This document shows, piece by piece, positions 785 through 38,859 of a stretch of 64,000 nt of DNA. The stretch spans positions 16,616 through 80,615 of IMG/VR virus record IMGVR_UViG_3300025264_000007, one strand, 5' to 3'. Below the pieces are notes generated by a model, which was not told the DNA's origin, ran no database searches, and was given only the letters and a program-made list of their open reading frames with translations. Origin of the DNA: a virus. Made by a program: the position numbers and the translations under genes. Positions within the stretch are counted from its first letter, which is position 1; every line of letters begins with the position of its first letter.

Positions 785-1009
785 CTATTCATCGCTAATA
801 CCGCTAATCACTTCTACATGTTTAGTTCGCACCCAATAATCACGTTCCCCGCTGCGCACCTTGCAGTAATCGGATAACACAGCCCCTTGCTCAGATGGAT
901 CCTTGTCAAGGGTGCAGTCAACGGCAGTCATCAGCACTCCAATACCGGAGACTTGAGTGCCGTGCTTTCCGTAGTGAAACTTGACCAAGTCGCCCACATT
1001 ATACATCAT
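785..1009 (-). CDS. Small SH3/KOW-like 'xGDLV' family protein
   Basis: YNVGDLVKF...GIGV...VEVIS. Confidence 0.7.
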   Translation of the reverse strand: MMYNVGDLVKFHYGKHGTQVSGIGVLMTAVDCTLDKDPSEQGAVLSDYCKVRSGERDYWVRTKHVEVISGISDE

Positions 1010-1233
1010 TCCGTCTGAGCTTTCGAAACCAAATAGAATTGGTCATAGCTCCAAAGATGTTTTTCACCAGTGGAGCAGACATAACCATAAAAATGTTTTT
1101 TACTGCCGCCAACGGTGTCAACCACAAGTATAAGACCATCCGTTCCCAAGAGCGGTTTATCAGTGAGAGCGCAGTTAACTCGGCTAGCAGGCTTGAACCT
1201 AAGCAGGTCGCCCACGTCAAAATCCGTTATCAC
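1006..1233 (-). CDS. Small SH3/KOW-like 'xGDLV' family protein
   Basis: FDVGDLLRF...GLILV...FYLVS; overlaps neighbours. Confidence 0.7.
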   Translation of the reverse strand: MITDFDVGDLLRFKPASRVNCALTDKPLLGTDGLILVVDTVGGSKKHFYGYVCSTGEKHLWSYDQFYLVSKAQTE

Positions 1234-1456
1234 TCAACCACTCCTTATATTGCCGGCAATGCGATAAAAATACATAACCCGACCAAGTAGGGAATTGCAC
1301 CGTAGCTTGATCAGCACCTTCTGGCCAAGTTCGGATCGGCAGTAAAGTGTTGGCGTCAAAGATATCGGTGATCACTCCGAACTCCTCACAGCCGCCCCCA
1401 TATTGCCATACAATGAAGTTGCCGACGTCAAACATTATGTGACCAAGTGCCGGCAT
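1217..1456 (-). CDS. Small SH3/KOW-like family protein (start may be the internal MFDVG)
   Basis: FDVGNFIVW...FGVITD. Confidence 0.65.
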   Translation of the reverse strand: MPALGHIMFDVGNFIVWQYGGGCEEFGVITDIFDANTLLPIRTWPEGADQATVQFPTWSGYVFLSHCRQYKEWLSDNGF

Positions 1457-1661
1457 GTTTTTGGGCTTTCTCTAGTTCATAGCTCATGAACCATAATGGT
1501 AAGGAACTGCTGGGAAAAGATACTGCGTATTGGGTAACGGCTCCGGAGTCAAAGATTGCCTCTATCACGAGCCCGACCTCAGAACGGTTGGAAAAAACTG
1601 AAGTGATGCTTTTGTGCCCGCCCGTGCGACGCCGACGAACGATATCTCCGGGCTTTATCAT
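1428..1661 (-). CDS. Small SH3/KOW-like 'xGDLV' family protein
   Basis: MIKPGDIVR...VGLVIE...ELEK. Confidence 0.7.
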   Translation of the reverse strand: MIKPGDIVRRRRTGGHKSITSVFSNRSEVGLVIEAIFDSGAVTQYAVSFPSSSLPLWFMSYELEKAQKHAGTWSHNV

Positions 1662-2409: not shown

Positions 2410-3651
2410 CTAAGCGTCGATCGCGATCACACGCTCATTGGTTTGGAAGTAGGGGCGAGCAGCACCACGCTGGTCAGTCATCCACATGCGTTGGGCCTTG
2501 CACCGCTTGGGCTTGGGAGCTTCCATATCCGTCAGAATAATGACACCGTCAAAGCTATGCTTATTGACATAATCGGTGGGAGCATCGAAGCAAGTGCCGC
2601 CGCAGGATACCCGCTCAGTCTTCTTGTTCTGCCCCTTCTTCCAGACGTAGACCTTATCCTCTGGCACCTCAGTATCAAAGGGGATGACCGTGAACTCTGC
2701 CAGCTTTGCCAGCCCATTGAGTTCAGCGAAGAAGCTCTCTAGCATGTGATCGCTGACAGAGCCCGACTGGTCGATGGCAATGGCAATCTTTGCCTGCCGC
2801 AGCACCTTCTTGCCAGGGTGGATGTAAGCGTAACGCTTGTTGATCCGCTTCACACTGGAGCGACGACTAGCACGCTGGCTGGTCTTGATGAAGTAGCGGA
2901 GCACCTTGCGCCAGTCTACCTTAGTCTCTAGTCTTTTTATAATCTCTTGTTTTACTTCCGCCGAAACCGAGCCCCAACCTTTAGCAGCTTGGCTAGCTTC
3001 TTGGGCAGCTTCTTTGAGCGCATTCTTGAGACGTTCCTGAGCCATCTGGTTAGCCTCTGCCGGCATGTTGCCGTCATCCCAACCGGAGTGGTCGTCAAAG
3101 CTACCAGGCTCGCCGGCACCACCGCTGTCGCCTGCCTCGCTGCCTTCACTACTGTCGCTACCTTCGCCGTCTTCGGTAGACTCGCCGCCATCACCGCCGG
3201 CAGAGCCTTCACCTTCTTCTTCGCCACCATCTTTCTTAATGTTGGCAAGGTACCACTCGGCACTCTCACCCGCAGGCAGATCAGCGAAGGGCCCGACACC
3301 AGGCATGCAAGCCAGTTCGGGCAGTTCATCTTTGAGGTGGCTGTTGATAGCCAGATCAGCCGCGATGTTCCACGTCTTATGGGGAACGCCTTCAGGCTTG
3401 CGACTCGTAACATGTTCGAAGATCAAGTGGTAGAACTCATGCTTGAGAACACCCTTGACGTGCTTTTCGGAAAGACTGGCAAAGAACTCGGGGTTGTAAA
3501 CCATCTCGAACTGTGCCGTCTCAGGGTTCACACGCACACCCGCTGTTGGGATGGCAGTCGTAGAGATCTTTTCGATCCGACGGCTCAAGGCTGCGAAGAA
3601 GGGCTCTTCCATCAACAGTCTATAGGCGTGAAGGCTTAGATCAAAACTCAC
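2410..3651 (-). CDS. VWA-domain putative metallopeptidase (DUF2201-like)
   Basis: HEFYH zinc motif, WNIAADLAIN, acidic linker, VWA MIDAS DQSGS...GGT...LTD. Confidence 0.9.
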   Translation of the reverse strand: MSFDLSLHAYRLLMEEPFFAALSRRIEKISTTAIPTAGVRVNPETAQFEMVYNPEFFASLSEKHVKGVLKHEFYHLIFEHVTSRKPEGVPHKTWNIAADLAINSHLKDELPELACMPGVGPFADLPAGESAEWYLANIKKDGGEEEGEGSAGGDGGESTEDGEGSDSSEGSEAGDSGGAGEPGSFDDHSGWDDGNMPAEANQMAQERLKNALKEAAQEASQAAKGWGSVSAEVKQEIIKRLETKVDWRKVLRYFIKTSQRASRRSSVKRINKRYAYIHPGKKVLRQAKIAIAIDQSGSVSDHMLESFFAELNGLAKLAEFTVIPFDTEVPEDKVYVWKKGQNKKTERVSCGGTCFDAPTDYVNKHSFDGVIILTDMEAPKPKRCKAQRMWMTDQRGAARPYFQTNERVIAIDA

Positions 3652-3671: not shown

Positions 3672-3699
3672 ATAATAGCATGGATACACTACTTGTCAA
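3672..3699 (-). promoter_or_regulatory. sigma70-type promoter TTGACA-N16-TATTAT with extended -10
   Basis: Minus strand TTGACAagtagtgtatccatgcTATTAT upstream of the VWA gene. Confidence 0.8.
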
Positions 3700-3781: not shown

Positions 3782-4825
3782 TCAGGCTCCCAAGATCTTG
3801 GAGAGGTGGGTTCCAACCGCTCCTTTGTTTGCCCCGTGGAAGTTGACCACGTTGCTTTGAATGCCGCCCGTGGAGATCACACTCCAGAGCTTCATGGCTG
3901 CTTCGCTAGGCAGGCTGACGAAGTAGTTAGCCAGGTTGGCAACTTCCTTCTCAGAGAGTTCCTTCTTGCAGACGTCTTCAGCCTCGACCTTTTCGATCAT
4001 GGCACAGTGCTCGTTGAGCGAGAAGGCTTCCAGAGTTTCGCTGCGATCGCCAGCTAGCAGTTGGGCAACCGTCACAACCCGCTCGTAGTTCTGAGCGAAG
4101 TCGTTGAAGGCAACAGCCGCTTCGAAGCCGACGAAGCTTTGAGCCAAGGTGAACATGGCAGGGGAAGCTTCTTCCAGAAGATCAGCCTTTACCAGCACAT
4201 CGTTCAGCCGATGCCAGGAGCGACGGCTGGGATAGCGTTTGTTGGGCTCAATGTCAGCGTTATGCTCAAGGTGAGCACGGTTCTGATTGATGAAATCCCA
4301 GATGAGGCCATCAATATTTTCTTTGCCCCAAGCCAACCAATCTTCTACCGTGGGCTCAATGTCCCAGACCGACCAGCGATCGAGTTCAGCAGGATCCATC
4401 TCATTGACCTGATACTGCTCGCCATGCTCGCCGCCGTTGATGGCAGCGAACACTACGGTATCCGGGTGAAGATGATGACCGTTCAGCTTCCGGCTGTCGG
4501 TCAGTTCGAAAATCCCCTGCCGAACTTCTAGGGTAGCGCGGTCAACCTCGTCGAGGAAGAGCACAACCGGTTGCTCGCAGGATTCTTTGAACCAGTCAGG
4601 GGGATTGAAGGTGGTGCGATTGCCGTCAATGCTGGGAAGACCGACAAGGTCTCCCTCGGTCATTTGGCTGGCACGCCGTTCAACAACAGGCAGTTCCATG
4701 TTGGCGGCCAACTGGTAAACAACCTGGCTCTTGCCGACACCGTGGCGACCACGGAGCAGAACTGGCAAGCGAGCAGCACTCACTGCGGGAGCCAGCTTGA
4801 CAAAGGTTTTGAAGTCTACAGACAT
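3782..4825 (-). CDS. MoxR-like AAA+ ATPase
   Basis: Walker A GRHGVGKS, Walker B LFLDEVDR, MDPAELDR, PSRRSW; adjacent to VWA partner. Confidence 0.9.
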   Translation of the reverse strand: MSVDFKTFVKLAPAVSAARLPVLLRGRHGVGKSQVVYQLAANMELPVVERRASQMTEGDLVGLPSIDGNRTTFNPPDWFKESCEQPVVLFLDEVDRATLEVRQGIFELTDSRKLNGHHLHPDTVVFAAINGGEHGEQYQVNEMDPAELDRWSVWDIEPTVEDWLAWGKENIDGLIWDFINQNRAHLEHNADIEPNKRYPSRRSWHRLNDVLVKADLLEEASPAMFTLAQSFVGFEAAVAFNDFAQNYERVVTVAQLLAGDRSETLEAFSLNEHCAMIEKVEAEDVCKKELSEKEVANLANYFVSLPSEAAMKLWSVISTGGIQSNVVNFHGANKGAVGTHLSKILGA

Positions 4826-4849: not shown

Positions 4850-4877
4850 ATAATAGCATGGATAGGGTATCTGTCAA
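4850..4877 (-). promoter_or_regulatory. sigma70-type promoter TTGACA-N16-TATTAT
   Basis: TTGACAgataccctatccatgcTATTAT upstream of the AAA gene. Confidence 0.8.
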
Positions 4878-5150
4878 CTTTTAAATGCACTTTTAACGCT
4901 TTTTTCTTGCGTTTTAAAGCCAATGGTGCTCGAATTGACAAAGACCCTTATACTATGTATTAGGCACCTCAAGACAAACGCCCCCAAACGCTGACAATAT
5001 CTGACACACGCAGAAAACGTTGGTATTGCTGGATTTCTATTATCTTTTAACCATCCACAGCAGACAAACCAAACAGTTACAGCACTGTGCAACTTTTGCA
5101 GTCAGTTCTGTCAACTATGCATCATTTATTTGCAGCAGGCAGAGAGCACC

Positions 5151-20842: not shown

Positions 20843-20870
20843 ATATTAGCATGGATGGGGGGCATGTCAA
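20843..20870 (-). promoter_or_regulatory. sigma70-type promoter TTGACA-N16-TAATAT
   Basis: TTGACAtgccccccatccatgcTAATAT. Confidence 0.8.
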
Positions 20871-31681: not shown

Positions 31682-31709
31682 ACTATAGCACTTATCCTGC
31701 AAAGGTCAA
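31682..31709 (-). promoter_or_regulatory. sigma70-type promoter TTGACC-N16-TATAGT (-35 overlaps the FtsH stop)
   Basis: Seen directly in the sequence. Confidence 0.7.
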
Positions 31710-33535
31710 GTAATTTCTTCGGGCTCGTCGAAATAGTTGTCGAGAATTGAAAACATTCCCTCTAGCTCTGATGCCATCACCGTATCTTGCTCCAGAAGCA
31801 TATTAGACAACACTACCAGATGCTCGCGCTTGGCCGCCAGCAGAATCTCTGCCTCGCGCAGCGCATCGGCGATGATCTCCCTCACCGAGCGATCAAACTG
31901 ATCTTTAGTTAGTTCCGAAGAGTCGCTGGAGCGGGGAGCATAGCCTTCGGTCTTTCCAAAATAAACGGGGCCAAGAGCCCCCATCCCATAATCTTTGACC
32001 ATTTTTTCTGCCACTTGTTTGGCACGCATCAAATCATTGGAAACGCCTGTGCTGGTGCCTTCCTCTCCATAAAACATTTTTTCTGCCACATAGCCACCCA
32101 GCAAAACCTTAATGGAGGCTATATTTTCTTTCTTGTTCCATGAATATTTATCATCTTCAGGCAATTGCATAGTGAGACCGAGCGCCTGACCGTGAGGAAT
32201 GATCGTGACCTTATGCAAAGGATCCGCATCTGCTAGGTAATACGCCAAGAGAGCGTGGCCTGCCTCGTGAATCGCCGTCGCACGGCGCGCTCGATCGGTC
32301 ATCTTCATAGACTTGCGCGGCTTCCCTATTATTAGTTTATCGCGCGCCTGCTCAAGGTGGCCTCGATCGACAGACGCGCTCCCCTCCATCGTAGCGCGGA
32401 TCGCTGCTTCGTTCACCAGATTAGAAAGATCTGCTCCCGAAAAACCAGTGGTCATCCTCGCTATCTCATTTAAATCTACGGCAGTATCAAGGGGCACTCC
32501 CTTACAGTGTATATCTAAAATTTGCTTACGCCCATGAGCGTCAGGGAGAGGTATATGCACCTTTCGGTCAAAACGACCGGGGCGCAACAGAGCCTTATCC
32601 AGAACCTCTGCGCGGTTAGTCGCCGCCAATACAATAATGCCACTATGCTCCGAAAACCCGTCCATTTCTACCAGTAGCTGATTCAATGTCTGCTCGCGCT
32701 CGTCATGACCACCGCCGGAACCGGAGCCTCTTTTTCTTCCCACAGCGTCTATTTCGTCAATAAAAATAATACATGGAGCAAGACTTTTGGCTTGATCAAA
32801 CAGGGCGCGAACTCGGGCTGCACCAACTCCCACAAACATTTCCACAAAATCGGATCCTGAAATAAGCAAGAAAGGGACGTTGGCTTCGCCAGCCACCGCC
32901 TTAGCCAGAAGGGTCTTGCCGGTTCCCGGCGCGCCCACCAACAAAGCTCCCTTTGGGAGTTTGCTGCCCATGCGGGTAAAGCGAGAGGGGTGCTTTAAAA
33001 AATACACCACCTCCTCAAGTTCTGCTTTGGCCTCCTCGCATCCGGCAACGTCAACAAAGCGAGTATGGTTAGCTTCAGGTAGAGAAAGACGCGCCTTGGT
33101 TTTAGCAAATCCGTCAACCTTCCCCGCGGAGGCAGATAAATTTTTGATCAAAAGATACAAAAAATAAAACAGGATCAGGAACGGCAACCACGACAGCAGG
33201 AGGGTCACCCACAGTGAGGGCGCTTCCGCCTCTAAAAATCTTACCTCTAAGTTCTTTTTGGTCGCCAGCTTATTAACGAAATCATCGGTAAGGGGCGCGG
33301 TAGTCACATATACCCGCTCCCCCAATTCCAGCCGCCAGTTATTTCCCTGCACCACAAAGCGACCGGGATTGTGCTCGTTGACATTATCAAGGAGCGAGAG
33401 AATTCTAGTATAACTCACCTCCTCTACAGACGGCTGGTGCCTTTTATCTGCCCAGGAGGCTAATGCTGAAATTAATAAAAAAGCGCCCAACCACATCGCT
33501 AGAACTCGTAGTTTTCGACTATAAAATATTCCCAT
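31706..33535 (-). CDS. ftsH: ATP-dependent zinc metalloprotease FtsH
   Basis: Two TM helices, [28 protein letters not shown]. Confidence 0.97.
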
Positions 33536-33603: not shown

Positions 33604-33783
33604 TTACTCTAATAGTTCAAGAGTGTTGAGGATCTTCATTTCTGATTCCGCGGTAGTCTCTGTTTCTTCCCAGTGGATAGTCCACCATTTGTCGTGGCGG
33701 CGAGTAAATGGTCCTAACAGCATTCCTACGAAACCGGTCGAAGGATCCTGCACCAAGGTACCTGATCTTAATTGTGTGCTCAT
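33604..33783 (-). CDS. SH3/KOW-like family protein
   Basis: LRSGTLVQ...VGMLL...WTIHW. Confidence 0.6.
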   Translation of the reverse strand: MSTQLRSGTLVQDPSTGFVGMLLGPFTRRHDKWWTIHWEETETTAESEMKILNTLELLE

Positions 33784-33826
33784 CGAGCCTCCTAACTTCC
33801 CACTACTATGGGTGCTTGTTGTCTGG

Positions 33827-34297
33827 TCATTTTTTACACATTTGGTTGTTGCACAACCCTGATAAAAAATTGAATTGTTTCTTCTGGAGGTTGCAGGTAA
33901 AGAAGGGATCTTTTTCTGCAAACTCATCCAAATATTTGTTGGCAATAATTGTTTGGAATACCGTGATGCCGTGATCTTTGATCTTGTTGACATAATAAGG
34001 GTTGTCATCGTAAAAGATTTCTATGTTATGTTCTTTTAGGATTTTTAATTTATGTTCCGCCATTTTCTGGAAGTGATCCAAATCCATATTTTTTTTCTCA
34101 TACTCAAATCCGCACAAGATATCTTCGTAGGTATCTGGACCAAATCCTAAATCGGCTAAACCTTTTTCTACTTCGTGTCGTTGAGAAGGGGGAGTTCCCG
34201 TTACAATATAAACCTTCCCCTGCCAACCGTTAATGAGTCTTTTAAAAAACTCAGGTGCATACGAAAGGGTATCGTGGAAATCAATGCCGATATTCAT
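33827..34297 (-). CDS. HAD-superfamily hydrolase
   Basis: IGIDFHDTL, VTG, K...FYDDNP. Confidence 0.8.
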   Translation of the reverse strand: MNIGIDFHDTLSYAPEFFKRLINGWQGKVYIVTGTPPSQRHEVEKGLADLGFGPDTYEDILCGFEYEKKNMDLDHFQKMAEHKLKILKEHNIEIFYDDNPYYVNKIKDHGITVFQTIIANKYLDEFAEKDPFFTCNLQKKQFNFLSGLCNNQMCKK

Positions 34298-36277
34298 TAG
34301 CTCAAAATATCCATAGTATTATATATGTTTGTGTAAGTTTCCTGGGAAATATTATCTATCGCAAAGGGGCGTGGTTCGCCGATCCACTGAAGCTGGAACC
34401 AGAGGACGCCGTCGGAACGATCCCAGTCAGGGGGGGATTTGATAATAAGGGCTGTTTGCTTTGTCTTGCGACACTGCACGAGTCTCCCCACTTCAAGCGT
34501 ACGGGGGACAACCTCAAACATTCCGTAGTGCCTACTCATCTTCTTTCCTAACGATGTTGAAACAATTATTAACGTTTACTAAAAGTGTTTGTTCTTTCTC
34601 TCCGGAGGTGAGCCACTGAAGATCTACATAGCGGTTGGCCCAGCTTGTGCCGGTACCTTTCTTCTCCTCGTAAGACTTGGTGAGGACAAGAGCGAGGCGG
34701 TCAGAACGTCGGCAACGCAGAAGAGTGCCGGGCATCTGAACTTTGTTCGCATGGTAGAGACTGTAGTCACTCTGATTCACTCAGCACCTCCCAATTCATA
34801 GGCATATAAATACATCGGCGACCGTTCGGAAATAGCACATCCCATAAAATATTTTTACCGGTCACTACTTGCTTGTTAGCAAGGATAGCATATTCTCCAC
34901 ACTCTTTAACGGTGGAGTTCTCACGGCACTGTTTCTTGATACGGAGAAGGGTGCCTGGTTTGAGTCTGTCAGGGTAATTCACTGGCTACCTTCTCCAACA
35001 GATCCGGGCGGTATCGCTTGGGATGGTTGCCGTTGTTAAAAAGAACGCTGACATAATGATATTGTCCGTCAGGAGTATGAGTGACAAAGTTGGAGCGCGT
35101 GATAAGACCCATCTGTCCGCCGGGGACAGCAATGCGAACCAAATCACCCACCTTGAACTGGGGTTTTGTGTCGAAGTCTGGATTCATTTTACTTTCGCCA
35201 GATATTCTATGGGGTATTGGGTTGACTGGTGCGCTCCAAAGAGAACGTCAACAAACTGAGTCTCGCCTCCGAGATATTCATCAAGAGCCCAATAGTTTGA
35301 GCGAGTGACGACGCCGAGAGCCTTTGTGGCGTTGGCACTGACCAATTCGCCAATCTTATAGCTCACATATTCGGGATTCATTACCACATCCTTTTCGTCA
35401 GTTTTTCTTCTTGAATAAAGAAGGTTGAGCTATCGGGCTTGAGTACACACCACATGGGATAGACCGGACCATTAATCTTTTCAACCAGAACCAAGGGCGT
35501 CTTGTTGTCAGCCAGGTCAATGAACCACAAGGTTGACAAGTGGTCAATCGCCGTCTTTCTAATTCTTACTAGGTCGCCGCACTTCATGATACTACCTCAA
35601 AATGGCTGGCGTTTCGCCAATGCTCTGCGTGAAACCGTGGTTCGTGCGTGGTATCCATGAGAGTTACTCTGATGATTAGGTCTGCGGGGTCGGGTCCTAT
35701 CTCCGTTACCAGTCCCAAAGCACCCCCAGGCTGATTGGTAACTCGATTGGGCTTGCGTCTTACGAGGTTGCCGACTTTCATGAGAGCACCTCCGCTTGAT
35801 CAGGGAAAACCATAACGGCACCCATGTCTAGGAAATTCATATTCTGCAAAGACTCGAACCGCACAAGAGACGGGTAAACCTTTACTCGCTCCGGTAGCTT
35901 GTCTTGATCTAGCTTGTGAGAGAGGTCATACTTTTCTTGGATAACCAAGCCAATCTCCCCCTCTAGTTTAGCACGGATGACGGGAGCGAACTGAGCCAGA
36001 CCAGATTTGTTTATTTTGATAATCTGTCCGACTTTCATGAAATCTGCTCCATGTTGCAGACATAATCTACGAAAGATTGCCCGCCATCAATCGGCTCGCA
36101 TTGATAGAAGAGGTGTTCATCGGCATCTTCATAGTCTCGGTCAAACTTACATGACGGCGACAAGCCGATAACCAAAGCAATCACATTGACCTCGGTTGCT
36201 GCGTTGCTGTTGACCAGCATACCCGGCTGGATGCGACAGCGTTTTTGAATCTCTTTTGCTACGCTCATCTGTGCCTC

Positions 36278-36433
36278 TTAATACATGAAGGTGTTTTCAA
36301 CGAGGTGTTCAACAACCACGTCGTGAATTTCCATAGCATTTTGGGGATGCTCGTTGATGGCGTCGTACCAAGCGTCAAGTGCTCCTTGACCAACGGCTCC
36401 TAGAATCTTTTCAATGTGTTCTTGAACTGGCAT
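36278..36433 (-). CDS. 51-aa helical hypothetical protein (not in ORF track), first gene after a promoter
   Basis: MPVQEHIEKILGAVGQGALDAWYDAINEH...; SD AGGAG. Confidence 0.65.
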   Translation of the reverse strand: MPVQEHIEKILGAVGQGALDAWYDAINEHPQNAMEIHDVVVEHLVENTFMY

Positions 36434-36452
36434 GTCTCTCTCCTTGTATCTT

Positions 36453-36480
36453 ATATTAGCACGGATAAGGTGCCTGTCAA
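36453..36480 (-). promoter_or_regulatory. sigma70-type promoter TTGACA-N16-TAATAT inside the array
   Basis: TTGACAggcaccttatccgtgcTAATAT. Confidence 0.8.
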
Positions 36481-36883
36481 GTTTTATTCTTGGGTCCCTT
36501 AGAAATAAGTTCTAGGTGGTCGCACCTTACCCAATAGTCTCCGTCGGGTGTTCGCACTTTGAACTTATTGTCGGCAGTGAAAACATAACGCTGCTTAATA
36601 ACAATACCTGTCAACATCGTCTCATCAATATATTCTTCTGTTACTCGCCTAGCCTCAAAGTTTACAAGGTCGCCGAGTTGGTATCTAAACGGATTGCTCA
36701 TCGTTCACTAATTTCAAATGCTGGACGGAATAATATTCTTCCAGTTCATATCCGAGCCAGTTAACCTTTACACAGACCGTAGTGCGGTCGTCTGGTGTTT
36801 CTGGATAGGAAAGCACCAGCCCAAGTTGGCGATTGTTGCCTTTGGCTACTGATTCCCGAAAACTCCAATCGGGCTCTACTAAG

Positions 36884-37051
36884 TCACCGGGTTTCACTTA
36901 TCACCTCTAGGCTTCCTTCTCTAAAGACTTGACCGCCGCTGAACCCTTCTAAACGAACAAACCCCTCAGCCACTGAAAGAACCAAATATGTTCGGTCGCC
37001 AAGGCTGGCTCCATATCGTCCCTTGATCGAGACCAAATCACCCGGCTTCAT
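36884..37051 (-). CDS. 55-aa array member missed by the ORF track
   Basis: MKPGDLVSIKGRYGASLGDRTYLVLSVAEGFVRLEGFSGGQVFREGSLEVISETR. Confidence 0.8.
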   Translation of the reverse strand: MKPGDLVSIKGRYGASLGDRTYLVLSVAEGFVRLEGFSGGQVFREGSLEVISETR

Positions 37052-37948
37052 TTATGACCTCCAAATACTTATTCCGAAACCAGTGAGTTTGTTTGCCCAG
37101 TGATGTTTTTTCGGTCAGAAGTAGTTGAGTGTAGTCTTCTTCTTCTGAAGATTCAAGAGCAATAATGATCCCGTAGAATATTTGGTAAGAGTAGCCCTCA
37201 GCCGTCTTAACCAAGTCACCGAGTTTCACGCCACAACTCCAATTCGCCGTAGTGCCAAGTTCTTTCTTTGCCTTCCAGCAAAGTCAAAACTGTTTCGCTT
37301 CGGTGGGAACCACCTTCAATAACTTTGATGACCAGCATCTTTTTGCCGGCCACTTCTCGGTCGGAAAAAATGTTTGGGGCTTGTCTTACCAAATCACCCG
37401 GCTTCATTTAGCACCTTCAATTCACACAAGCGTTGCTTACAGGGGGAGTTGTCGGACATAAAGTTCCAGAGAACGTCGCACCACATATAGCCCGCTGGGT
37501 TTTTGGGTGGGAGATAAACTTTTACAACAATACCTGAGACTGACTTGTCCATTTCGTGCTCAAACGTTACGAGATCACCGACTTTCATTGACTAGCTCCA
37601 AATAATCGTGGTCTTTGGGATAGGGTCCATTGCCTTCTCCGTCAGTCCACGCAATATCAACTTTTTCTTCTGCGCCTTCACAAGCCTTCCACACACCGAC
37701 AACCACGCCATAGACTGGTTCTTTCGTGGGGTGTGACCATTTTACTAAATCACCGCGTTTCACTGATTACCTTTTCTATACGATAGGAGCTACAATTGCC
37801 GGGAGATCCGTCCTCGCAGTAAACCATACGAATGTGGGGCGGGATGCCCTCGCCGTGAAGCTCAACTTTAGAAATGAGGGCGAGGTGACCCGACTTCATC
37901 TCAACAAGGTCGCCAACTTTTAGTTCGTATCGCCAACCGGCGTCGTCT

Positions 37949-38227
37949 CTAATCATTTGTTTCTACAATCTCAAAGTTAGGGTCGCTGTGAAGGCTCACC
38001 CAGCGGGCATCCCTTACCTGACCCAAAGCCTCAAGCAGGAGGAAGGGGCCAGGAGCAGGCGTCTTAAACGATACCTTGTCAGTCTCCCCGCTCACCTTCC
38101 ACATGTCACCCTTTTCGTGAATGCGGTTTTTGCCGTGACGGGTGATGCCAGAGAGCTTAACTGTCTTGCCTACGTTAGGTCCAGGCGGTAGCTGTGTCCA
38201 GTGCTTTTTCACGACTCTCTCCCTCAC
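37949..38227 (-). CDS. Phage hypothetical protein
   Basis: LSGITRHGKNRIHEKG...RWV...DPNFEI. Confidence 0.7.
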   Translation of the reverse strand: MRERVVKKHWTQLPPGPNVGKTVKLSGITRHGKNRIHEKGDMWKVSGETDKVSFKTPAPGPFLLLEALGQVRDARWVSLHSDPNFEIVETND

Positions 38228-38565
38228 TAGTATACTACCACCCTATTGGGATAAGTCAAGTTATTTATTTTATTGTGCCAGCAATATTTCAGCGTAATTT
38301 ACACATAGACAGACAGTCTTGATTCCCTCGGGACGACACAGAAGTGGTCCTCGTCCAGATTTAGTGAAGGGGTTTCCAGAATAGGCAACCACGCTATAAA
38401 AGTATCCTTCGGGCCAAATAGGTTCAGGCCCACTACACACATACCCCAGCGTGGGCTTACCCTTCAGACGAATTTCAACCACTTCACCAATCTCAAATTC
38501 GTTTTCAACCATAATGAAAACCTCCCTTACAGCAGTATATTAGCACACTTCTAGGAGAGGTCAAG

Positions 38566-38823
38566 TTATATTTCGATTCTGAGAAAAGTCAAAAATCTGG
38601 AAAGTAGGGAGCGATTATTTTTCGGAGCCATCTCGTTTTTGGTAATTTCATCCGCACAGGTAAAAAAGCGTTGCTCTCGGTATTGCTGGAGCAGGCGCTC
38701 GTCGCTTAATACCCACTTGCGGAGTCTGAACCATTCCACCAAGTCACTGGGAGTATAAACGGGCTGGTTCTCTAAGATAGCCAGACGGTATAATGCAGTA
38801 GCCACGGAGTTCTCCTCTACCAT
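38566..38823 (-). CDS. Hypothetical protein
   Basis: ORF downstream of promoter 38824-38851. Confidence 0.55.
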   Translation of the reverse strand: MVEENSVATALYRLAILENQPVYTPSDLVEWFRLRKWVLSDERLLQQYREQRFFTCADEITKNEMAPKNNRSLLSRFLTFLRIEI

Positions 38824-38859
38824 AGTATACCATTCCTTCGGCAGAGGTCAACAAAAAAA

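What the first reader, a model, noticed from the sequence alone, without database searches (positions are those of the whole stretch)
34297..38512. Massively expanded SH3/KOW-like small-protein family with a shared scaffold and variable loops
Seen: about 18 proteins of 55-90 aa share K-x-G-D/T/Q-L-V, a central G/A-L/I-V/I strand, a Y/V-x-V-x-W/F strand and a terminal L-E-x-I/V-S. Loop sequences are completely different. The lower half of the array uses 4-nt overlaps (36035-38, 35778-81, 35584-87, 35184-87) and two more 14-nt overlaps (34969-82, 34767-80). Strong promoters sit at 38232-38259, 38537-38564 and 36453-36480. Inference: a library of small beta-barrel binders expressed early, possibly anti-defence or host-takeover factors.
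Basis: partly seen in the sequence, partly recalled or inferred. Interest (0 to 1): 0.75.

Follow-up and report, generated by a model that had tools for sequence, protein, structure and literature searches.

The report
Chained SH3-like mini-genes in marine phage
An uncultured marine phage carries a head-to-tail chain of about 16 tiny genes for one uncatalogued small barrel-shaped protein with a fixed core and very variable loops; each gene starts inside the end of the one before, and what the proteins bind is still unknown.

Summary
On the minus strand of 34297-38512 lie 20 small ORFs. Sixteen are one family: 12 strong by profile and 4 probable. m12 is unresolved. m02 is a separate conserved family, probably of the same fold class. 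m01 and m11 are unrelated by sequence. The overlaps and the three promoters are exactly as stated.

An AlphaFold model of member m04 (pLDDT 88.5) is a five-strand SH3-like barrel, closest to Spt5 KOW (Z 8.9). The family has no Pfam or PHROG entry. It is abundant in uncultured viral contigs: at least 120 loci, about 1,200 members, up to 37 per locus.

It holds the Shine-Dalgarno site, the start codon and M-K-x-G-D of the next gene, written inside L-E-V-I-[S/N]-E-x-R-stop of the previous one.

Close relatives gain, lose and replace whole genes at these junctions. Orthologues show purifying selection (dN/dS 0.08-0.5), and indels are confined to loops.

Early expression is inferred from promoters. 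Binder or anti-defence function is not shown.

This scan already found the same kind of array in at least 54 other genomes.

The parts
38537..38564 (-). Sigma-70-type promoter with extended -10, in front of m01
   Evidence: one of 6 motif matches in the window, all on the coding strand, against 0.32 expected
38270..38512 (-). m01, 80 aa, an orphan ORF with its own promoter; not a detectable family member
   Evidence: hhalign probability 2-9%. Absent from relatives L138 and L139. Good ribosome-binding site GGGAGG
38232..38259 (-). Promoter of the m02-m10 operon
   Evidence: The same motif lies at the same place in L138, at 3419-3446
37949..38212 (-). m02, 87 aa from the GTG at 38212. A separate conserved family with the motif S-R-H-G-K-N-R-I-x-E-K-G, probably an SH3-like barrel with a helix in the first loop
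   Evidence: 26 homologues that begin at this start. Profile-profile probability against the family is 5%. The model has pLDDT 81. Its best matches are all Tudor/SH3-like, but Z is only 6.2
37750..37956 (-). m03, family member with a 12-aa N-terminal extension
   Evidence: hhalign 98%
37575..37763 (-). m04, family member; the one that was modelled
   Evidence: hhalign 98.8%. AlphaFold2 pLDDT 88.5 with five strands. Spt5 KOW Z 8.9. Absent from L138 and L139
37394..37588 (-). m05, family member
   Evidence: hhalign 98.7%. Orthologue 84% identical in L138, dN/dS 0.33
37216..37407 (-). m06, family member
   Evidence: hhalign 97.8%. Orthologue in L138, dN/dS 0.50
37038..37229 (-). m07, family member
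   Evidence: hhalign 98.3%. Other cassettes take its place in L138 and L139
36884..37051 (-). m08, family member, the shortest at 55 aa
   Evidence: hhalign 98.1%. A population variant skips m07 and m08
36685..36897 (-). m09, family member
   Evidence: hhalign 97.3%. dN/dS 0.08
36477..36701 (-). m10, family member and last gene of the first operon
   Evidence: hhalign 96.4%. dN/dS 0.16
36453..36480 (-). Promoter of the m11-m20 operon
   Evidence: An equivalent motif follows the m10 orthologue in L138, at 5028-5055
36278..36433 (-). m11, 51 aa, acidic; not a family member
   Evidence: hhalign about 1%. pI 4.4. Absent from L138 and L139
36035..36268 (-). m12, 77 aa; membership unresolved
   Evidence: hhalign 46% alone and 25% with orthologues. 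Orthologues in L138 and L139
35778..36038 (-). m13, probable member with a long insertion after the second strand
   Evidence: hhalign 86-94% over the N-terminal half. dN/dS 0.18
35584..35781 (-). m14, family member
   Evidence: hhalign 97.8%. 94% identical in L138 with dS of only 0.11, a sign of recent exchange
35381..35587 (-). m15, family member
   Evidence: hhalign 96.9%
35184..35387 (-). m16, probable member
   Evidence: hhalign 89-95%. Pairwise match to m17
34969..35187 (-). m17, family member
   Evidence: hhalign 97.5%. Missing from L138 exactly between two junctions
34767..34982 (-). m18, family member
   Evidence: hhalign 97.7%
34532..34780 (-). m19, probable member of a subfamily with a C-terminal extension
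   Evidence: hhalign 52-75%. Pairwise match to m20. dN/dS 0.11
34297..34539 (-). m20, probable member of the same subfamily
   Evidence: hhalign 91-92%
33604..33783 (-). A further member outside the stated range (59 aa, start behind AGGAGG), separated from the array by a 156-aa gene
   Evidence: hhalign 88%. Orthologues follow the array directly in L138 and L139
785..1661 (-). Second small chain of four overlapping ORFs: 785-1009, 1006-1233, 1217-1456 and 1428-1661
   Evidence: hhalign 96.7%, 90.3%, 24.7% and 96.9% respectively

Best explanation
This is a fast-turning-over cassette array in the replication region of an uncultured marine phage of roughly 200 kb.

Genes and proteins. Two operons run from host-type (sigma-70, extended -10) promoters. 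Between them they encode 16 paralogues of one uncatalogued, phage-restricted family of single-domain proteins of 55-86 aa. The predicted fold is a five-strand SH3-like barrel of the KOW/Tudor type.

The junction. Genes are chained by a junction of about 32 nt, consensus TGGAGGTNATNA|RTGAARNNNGGTGAYYT. Read in one frame it gives the last strand and tail of the upstream protein, L-E-V-I-[S/N]-E-x-[R/G]-stop. It also carries the Shine-Dalgarno site (GGAGG), the start codon and M-K-x-G-D of the downstream protein. Each cassette therefore brings the translation start for the next one, which gives coupled translation. The repeated junction also offers a stretch of homology at which whole cassettes are gained, lost and replaced.

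Conservation. Only the barrel core is conserved. Three loops vary freely in sequence and length, and net charge runs from acidic to basic.

What is shown: the family, the predicted fold, the junction, ribosome-site selection, purifying selection, cassette turnover at junctions, and promoter enrichment with conserved positions.

What is inferred: early transcription by host RNA polymerase. Also inferred, at about 35% on its own, is that the proteins form a repertoire of binders on one scaffold, each aimed at a different host or competitor molecule in host takeover or counter-defence.
For: Family membership:
- Iterative HMM searches on six-frame ORFs recover members and no off-frame decoys.
- hhalign probabilities exceed those of reversed decoys.
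- In related loci, 1,190 of 1,193 hits lie on the gene strand.

Fold:
- The m04 model has pLDDT 88.5 and strands at 6-9, 17-26, 33-38, 48-51 and 55-59.
- Best structural matches are Spt5 KOW (Z 8.9, 58 residues, 2.0 A), PsaE 8.3, Tudor 8.3 and NdhS 7.8. Foldseek TM-scores are 0.6-0.75.

Spread:
- 234 cluster representatives match at E<=1e-3 among 1.8 billion proteins.
- There are up to 37 members per locus.

Junction:
- Overlaps are listed.
- The consensus comes from 427 pairs; its upstream half was not part of the search pattern.
- Glutamate in L-E-V is GAG in 89% of cases against 44% elsewhere, and the leucine codon ends in G in 67% against 40%.

Selection:
- dN/dS is 0.08-0.5 for the 11 orthologue pairs whose dS could be estimated; dS was saturated for m03 and m12.
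- 1 gap codon falls in core positions against 39 in loops.

Turnover:
- Relatives L138, L139 and L140 keep the flanks (DnaE 87-95% identical) but lack m01, m04, m11 and m17, and carry other cassettes in place of m07 and m08.
- blastn blocks end at junctions.
- Per-cassette dS runs from 0.1 to above 1.5, against 0.7 in the flanks.
- A contig in two marine samples joins 36896 to 37239, skipping m07 and m08.

Promoters.

Diversity: 962 clusters at 60% identity among 1,208 members, with pI 4.2-10.
Against: - No transcript or protein evidence exists, and none of the runs that hold this DNA is an RNA run.
- No partner, ligand or phenotype is known for any member.
- Only one family member (m04) was modelled; m02, a separate family, was the only other protein modelled. 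The shared fold of the divergent lower half rests on profile similarity.
- Loops evolve only slightly faster than the core in substitutions (dN/dS 0.25 against 0.20). There is no sign of positive selection at this crude level, which an arms-race binder library might be expected to show.
- The loci used for family statistics were found with the junction pattern, so the share of 14-nt overlaps and the conservation of the N-terminal motif are inflated.
Confidence: 0.55

Rival explanations
1. KOW-like regulators with one common target. All members dock on the same host machine, such as RNA polymerase, Rho or ribosomal protein S10, as NusG/Spt5 KOW domains and UvrD/CarD Tudor domains do. The phage carries many interchangeable copies.
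For: - The best structural match is Spt5 KOW at Z 8.9. NusG KOW (7.2) and the PcrA/UvrD Tudor domain also appear.
- The only weak profile hits to solved structures are the KOW protein uL24 and other SH3-like ribosomal proteins, at E 0.09-1.
- The array sits behind early-type promoters.
Against: - No surface position is conserved outside the core and the junction.
- pI ranges from 4.2 to 10.
- No Pfam KOW match appears even at E<=1.
- A single target gives no reason for tens of divergent copies per genome.
Confidence: 0.15
2. Near-neutral, self-propagating cassettes. The junction repeat drives duplication and exchange. The proteins are kept foldable mainly so that translation can run through the chain, and they contribute little to infection.
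For: - Whole cassettes are freely present or absent among close relatives, and in the population.
- The strongest conservation lies in the nucleotide junction itself.
- 784 of 1,208 members are singletons at 60% identity.
Against: - dN/dS is well below 1 across whole genes, including loops.
- Barrel-core residues outside the junction are conserved over about 1,200 sequences.
- Orthologues persist across relatives in which dS is saturated.
Confidence: 0.15
3. Subunits of one assembly. The translationally coupled paralogues are made in equal amounts and build a hetero-oligomer (Sm-ring-like) or a virion or scaffold component.
For: - Overlaps imply coupled, roughly equimolar translation.
- SH3-like and Sm barrels often oligomerise (general knowledge).
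Against: - Copy number per locus ranges from 1 to 37.
- Neighbours are not kept together: m05 occurs without m04 in L138 and without m06 in L139.
- The array lies among replication genes, not structural genes.
Confidence: 0.07
4. Gene-calling artefact. The ORFs are chance frames over a DNA repeat and are not translated.
For: - The junction is a conserved nucleotide repeat.
- No expression data exist.
Against: - Purifying selection.
- A confident fold prediction.
- Profile hits on only one strand and frame.
- Selected Shine-Dalgarno sites.
- No information content between junctions at the DNA level, while protein core columns are conserved.
Confidence: 0.02

Closest known systems
KOW domains of NusG/Spt5 and uL24 (Pfam PF00467)
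   Same: - A five-strand SH3-like barrel of about 55-60 residues.
- The first strand begins with K-x-G-D-x-V.
- Best structural match: Z 8.9 over 58 residues at 2.0 A.
   Different: - No significant sequence match to the KOW model or to any solved KOW protein.
- These are stand-alone proteins, not a domain of a larger factor.
- They have hypervariable loops and occur in tens of paralogues per genome.
Tudor-like and other small SH3-like stand-alone proteins (PsaE, NdhS, PetP, R67 DHFR, PcrA/UvrD C-terminal Tudor, DsrB)
   Same: Same fold class and size, with Z 7-8.3. DsrB appears among language-model neighbours.
   Different: - No sequence relationship was detected.
- Those are single-copy proteins with defined partners.
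- None is arranged in overlapping arrays.
PeSL (promoter-early stem-loop) cassettes in hyperplastic regions of T4-type phages (Arbiol et al. 2010, PMC2839356; Comeau et al. 2014, PMC4122927)
   Same: - Short repeated sequences flank small non-essential early genes.
- Recombination between the repeats shuffles, deletes and inserts whole genes between close relatives.
   Different: - A PeSL is a non-coding promoter plus terminator between genes (abstract).
- Here the repeat is coding in two frames and carries a ribosome site, start and stop, with no promoter or terminator.
- The shuffled genes all belong to one protein family.
Integron gene cassettes
   Same: An ordered chain of small promoterless cassettes read from an upstream promoter, with variable cassette content.
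   Different: - No integrase was found on the 80.6-kb fragment.
- No attC-like site was recognised; the junction as read is coding (no dedicated attC search was run).
- All cassettes are paralogues.
Nip, the SPbeta counter-defence protein with two predicted SH3-like domains (PMC11984713)
   Same: A phage protein built from SH3-like domains that inhibits a host defence protein by binding it. It is a precedent for the proposed kind of function.
   Different: Nip has 279 aa and an HU-like dimerisation domain. It is a single gene, and no sequence relation was tested or expected.

Membership tests
KOW (PF00467) | Match to the Pfam KOW model above its gathering score | tested here: not met
   No KOW hit for any of the 20 ORFs even at E<=1
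KOW (PF00467) | SH3-like five-strand barrel that superposes on solved KOW domains | tested here: met
   The m04 model against MjSpt5 KOW gives Z 8.9, 58 residues, 2.0 A. This was tested for one member only
SH3-like small beta-barrel fold class | Five antiparallel strands forming a closed barrel in about 60 residues | tested here: met
   m04: pLDDT 88.5 and five strands, with all top matches in this fold class. m02: inconclusive at Z 6.2. The other members rest on profile similarity
The uncatalogued M-K-x-G-D-L-V ... L-E-V-I-S-E-S-R phage family (no Pfam or PHROG entry) | Significant match to the profile built from homologues | tested here: met
   Met for 16 of the 20 ORFs. m12 is inconclusive. 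m01, m02 and m11 do not match
The uncatalogued M-K-x-G-D-L-V ... L-E-V-I-S-E-S-R phage family (no Pfam or PHROG entry) | Chaining by the dual-coding junction (14-nt or 4-nt overlap with an upstream GGAGG) | tested here: met
   Within the stated range there are eight 14-nt overlaps, four 4-nt overlaps, and single overlaps of 17 and 7 nt plus two of 8 nt. The same junction occurs in 427 of 889 adjacent pairs elsewhere
PeSL cassettes of T4-type phages | The repeat unit is a sigma-70 early promoter plus a stem-loop terminator | tested here: not met
   Junctions hold no promoter. Terminator-like sites are not enriched: 3 found against 6.1 expected. Promoters occur only at the operon heads
PeSL cassettes of T4-type phages | Differences between close relatives are bounded by the repeats | tested here: met
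   blastn blocks between the window and L138 or L139 start and end at junctions. Cassettes are present or absent as whole units
Integron | Tyrosine-recombinase integrase next to the array | tested here: not met
   No PF00589 match on the 80.6-kb record. The record is only about 40% of the genome
Diversity-generating retroelement | Reverse transcriptase with a template repeat | tested here: not met
   No PF00078 match on the record. Variation includes indels and all residue types

The most novel reading that the evidence does not exclude
The array is an integrase-free cassette library. A standard 32-nt joint, read in two frames, lets the phage population plug in, drop and swap small barrel proteins without disturbing translation of the neighbours. 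Each cassette is a specific inhibitor or decoy for a different host defence or takeover target. The chain would then be the phage's exchangeable counter-defence repertoire, shared across many marine phage lineages.
Probability: 0.25. Interest if true: 0.85.

Novelty: new variant of a known kind. Interest (0 to 1): 0.6.

Why it matters
Small early phage genes of unknown function are the main reservoir of host-takeover and counter-defence factors. Here hundreds of distinct versions sit on one simple 60-residue scaffold, in a form that is easy to synthesise and screen.

The junction may be a natural design for seamless, translationally coupled gene chaining and cassette exchange. It packs a ribosome site, a start and a stop into two protein-coding frames.

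The family is abundant in marine viral contigs yet absent from Pfam and PHROGs. tblastn with two family sequences found it in none of the 50,697 GenBank phage records searched. Naming it would annotate thousands of 'hypothetical' genes.

The limit is that no function is known. The same architecture has also already been flagged repeatedly by this scan in other genomes, so this window adds one more, well-documented case, in a DnaE-type rather than an obviously T4-type phage. It is not a first sighting.

Tried and rejected
- Pfam and PHROG scans of all 20 ORFs gave nothing significant.
- megablast of the region, and tblastn of two family proteins (one a natural two-domain fusion), against 50,697 phage records gave no match even at E<=1. 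The tool may hide near-identical records.
A DNA pattern for two successive junctions was used instead.
The genomic context of the database homologues was therefore taken from IMG/VR loci only.
- Larger proteins that hit the profile (P0005, P0017, P0120, P0058) gave no informative domain fusion. P0005 is a biased-composition false hit.
- The profile search of solved structures gave only non-significant hits.
- Expression: no RNA holder is listed among the public runs.
- Co-folding of the neighbours m05 and m06 returned 'no answer' (score 0.00). It is no evidence either way.
- In the reads laid on the region, many short joints and loose ends pile up at junction positions. Most have sides under 35 nt and probably come from other phages that share the junction. 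Only the 36896-to-37239 joint (side 51) was used.
- A suspected link between the arrays and an 'HNH endonuclease' (PHROG 1314) was dropped. Pfam shows that protein to be a DUF2201 VWA/metallopeptidase-like partner of a MoxR-type ATPase, so it is a conserved syntenic gene and not a nuclease.
- The integron and retroelement readings were rejected.

Full report
**Context.** The window is bases 16616-80615 of a single 80,615-bp IMG/VR virus record that CheckV rates about 40% complete. Nearly all long ORFs run on the minus strand. They include:
- a DnaE-type polymerase III alpha subunit, a DnaB helicase and a class II ribonucleotide reductase;
- a GroEL-like chaperonin, a UvsX-like recombinase, dUTPase, an MT-A70 methylase, FtsH and an IMPDH/GMP-reductase-like enzyme.

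No cultured phage is close; the best DnaE match is about 30% identical. The DNA is held by marine metagenome runs of 19 studies, and none is an RNA run. The array lies between dUTPase and DnaE upstream and FtsH downstream.

**The observation.** Twenty minus-strand ORFs of 51-92 aa tile 34297-38512. I numbered them m01 (38270-38512) to m20 (34297-38539's lower end, 34297-34539).
- Pairwise similarity is weak. Only m04~m05, m16~m17 and m19~m20 reach significance.
- An HMM seeded with m03-m10 and iterated on all six-frame ORFs of the contig pulled in m14, m17 and a copy at 785-1009. It pulled in no off-frame ORF.
- With a profile enlarged by homologues from related loci, m15, m18 and 1428-1661 joined.
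- hhalign of each ORF against this profile gave more than 96% for m03-m10, m14, m15, m17 and m18, and 89-94% for m13, m16 and m20. It gave about 50% for m12 and m19, and under 3% for m01, m02 and m11. Reversed decoys peaked at 18%.
- Adding orthologues raised m16 to 95% and m19 to 75%. It left m12 at 25%.

The count is therefore 16 members, one unresolved and three non-members.

The stated 4-nt and 14-nt overlaps are exact, and the upper half uses six more 14-nt overlaps. The three promoters exist. The shared form TTGAC-N14-TGNTANTAT occurs six times in the window, all on the coding strand and all just upstream of genes, against 0.32 expected. The same motif lies at the equivalent places in relatives.

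**Fold.** AlphaFold2 on m04, with a 12-member alignment, gave pLDDT 88.5 and five strands. Foldseek found only SH3-like barrels at TM 0.6-0.75 but with E above 0.01. Exhaustive structural alignment gave Spt5 KOW Z 8.9 (58 residues, 2.0 A), PsaE 8.3, a Tudor domain 8.3, NdhS 7.8, NusG KOW 7.2 and R67 DHFR 7.0. So the fold class is SH3-like.

Sequence membership in KOW or any other Pfam family is not met. Hits of the profile to solved structures are not significant; uL24 is best at E 0.09.

m02 is a different, well-conserved family of 26 homologues, with the motif S-R-H-G-K-N-R-I-x-E-K-G. It has no profile similarity to the array family. Its model (pLDDT 81) has five strands plus a helix in the first loop. 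All its best matches are Tudor/SH3-like, but at Z 6.2 or less, which the tool itself rates as inconclusive.

**The family elsewhere.**
- A profile search of 1.8 billion cluster representatives found 234 proteins at E<=1e-3. Almost all are 54-85 aa long.
- A second search found 188 more cluster representatives. All are unnamed or 'hypothetical' and none has a Pfam domain. Language-model neighbours are viral.
It hit only 17 stretches in 596 Gb of prokaryote genomes, nearly all in metagenome bins.
- In those 120 loci the profile finds about 1,190 members, up to 37 per locus, and 1,190 of 1,193 lie on one strand.
- At 60% identity the 1,208 members fall into 962 clusters. Their pI spans 4.2-10.

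**Scaffold and loops.** Only these profile states carry more than about 1.4 bits across 1,209 members:
- states 1-7, M-K-V-G-D-L-V;
- states 21-24, G-[ILV]-[VI]-[VIL];
- states 38 and 40, V-x-W;
- states 54-61, L-E-V-I-[SN]-E-S-R.

Every other position is near background. Length variation is concentrated after states 13, 31 and 41, which are the three loops of the model.

**The junction.**
- The 14-nt overlap RTGAARNNNGGTGA gives M-K-x-G-D in one frame and [N/S]-E-x-[R/G]-stop in the other. S pairs with GTG starts and N with ATG starts.
- Upstream of it, L-E-V is written YTG-GAG-GTN, which is a GGAGG Shine-Dalgarno site 7-8 nt before the next start.
- This is selected at the nucleotide level. 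Glutamate at that position is GAG in 89% of members against 44% elsewhere in the same genes. The leucine codon ends in G in 67% against 40%.
- Over 427 junctions the information-rich stretch runs from -12 to +20, and the flanks carry none. The upstream half was not part of my search pattern.

Two of the four 'scaffold' motifs are therefore also a translation-initiation signal for the neighbouring gene. The lower half of the array (m12-m17) mostly uses the simpler ATGA form.

**Evolution.** Three relatives were found, L138 and the near-identical pair L139/L140, the latter from contigs of 115 and 172 kb. They keep the flanking genes: DnaE is 87-95% identical and dUTPase 77-86%. The array differs in whole units:
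- m01, m04, m11 and m17 are absent from all three relatives; m02 and m06 are also absent from L139/L140, and no orthologue of m20 was detected in any of them.
- m07 and m08 are replaced by two other members.
- Extra members sit between m12 and m13 (L138) and after m16 (L139); in L139 a different member stands in m14's place.

Nucleotide blocks begin and end at junctions: 37589-37207, 36907-36429, 36040-35182 and 34981-34551. Different junctions also cross-match at 82-100% over 23-39 nt.

Nei-Gojobori estimates against L138 give dN/dS of 0.08-0.50 for array genes, against 0.05-0.11 for the enzymes alongside. Per-cassette dS runs from 0.11 (m14) to above 1.5 (m09, m10, m13), with 0.6-0.8 in the flanks, which indicates mosaic ancestry. 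Pooled core positions give 0.20 with 1 gap codon, and loops give 0.25 with 39 gap codons. So there is purifying selection throughout, indels only in loops, and no evidence of positive selection at this resolution.

In contigs of two marine samples one variant joins 36896 to 37239 through a junction-like 10-mer, skipping m07 and m08. No integrase and no reverse transcriptase lie on the record.

**Mechanism.**
- Shown: real, constrained genes for one predicted barrel fold; a joint that provides ribosome site, start and stop; exchange of cassettes at the joint; strong host-type promoters at the operon heads.
- Inferred: early transcription, coupled translation, and homologous recombination at the joint. 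The phage has a UvsX-like recombinase.
- Most speculative: the proteins' job. There is no conserved surface, the charge range is wide, the number of distinct versions is huge and there are no enzyme-like motifs. Together these fit a repertoire of different binding specificities better than one shared target. No partner is known. Rivals are listed with odds in their own section.

**Comparison with known systems.** The nearest described process is PeSL-mediated modular shuffling in T4-type phages (PMC2839356, abstract read). It shares repeat-bounded exchange of small early genes. It differs in that PeSLs are non-coding promoter-terminator units and the shuffled genes are unrelated to one another. 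A phage counter-defence protein built of SH3-like domains (Nip, PMC11984713) is a functional precedent only. Four literature searches found no description of this family or junction.

**Earlier notes of this scan.** The same kind of array has been reported in at least 54 other genomes, with the same open question about function. My junction, turnover and fold results were obtained independently here and agree with them.

**Verdict.** This is an uncatalogued but, within this scan, already repeatedly seen system. It is of real interest for its architecture and as a screenable protein library, but its function is unknown.

Noticed in passing
window 785-1661 (-): A second short chain of four overlapping small ORFs. 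Three are clear family members. It lies downstream of the VWA/MoxR gene pair.
   Followed up: partly
window 33604-33783 (-): A further family member (59 aa, AGGAGG ribosome site) hidden inside a longer listed ORF (33604-34008). A 156-aa gene (33827-34297) that the relatives lack separates it from the array. That gene's N-terminus looks like a HAD-type hydrolase by eye, but it has no Pfam hit.
   Followed up: partly
contig G000:C1:4050-4544 (-), upstream of the window: A 164-aa protein whose C-terminal 58 residues match the family profile, fused to an unknown N-terminal domain of about 100 aa. It is the only domain fusion seen on this contig.
   Followed up: no
window 2410-3651 and 3782-4825 (-): PHROG 1314 labels the first protein 'HNH endonuclease', but Pfam shows DUF2201_N plus a DUF2201 VWA-like domain. 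Its neighbour is an AAA_5 (MoxR-type) ATPase. Orthologues 53-62% identical lie within 0.05-5 kb of family arrays in 28 of 120 viral loci, so this is conserved synteny and probably a mislabelled PHROG.
   Followed up: partly
window 31706-33535 (-): A full-length FtsH-like protease (AAA plus peptidase M41) encoded by the phage. Relatives L138 and L139 lack it at the syntenic place.
   Followed up: no
window 3672-3699, 4850-4877, 20843-20870 (-): Three more copies of the promoter motif TTGACA-N9-ATCCATGCTAWTAT, each just upstream of a gene: the VWA protein, the MoxR-like ATPase and a 214-aa ORF.
   Followed up: partly
window 38566-38823 (-): The listed ATG at 38823 directly abuts the -10 box of a promoter-like site (38824-38851). 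A GTG at 38805 behind GAGGAG is the more likely start.
   Followed up: no
window 37548-37731: Summed contig depth in four marine runs jumps 3- to 8-fold here (the m04/m05 junction and m04). Many different flanking sequences are attached, as if this junction version is shared by many phages in the samples.
   Followed up: no
window 37949-38212 (-): m02 belongs to its own conserved small-protein family, with invariant G-K-N-R and W residues. Some homologues start M-K-I-G and end E-I-V-E-x-N-D, so they mimic the array family's ends without detectable homology.
   Followed up: partly
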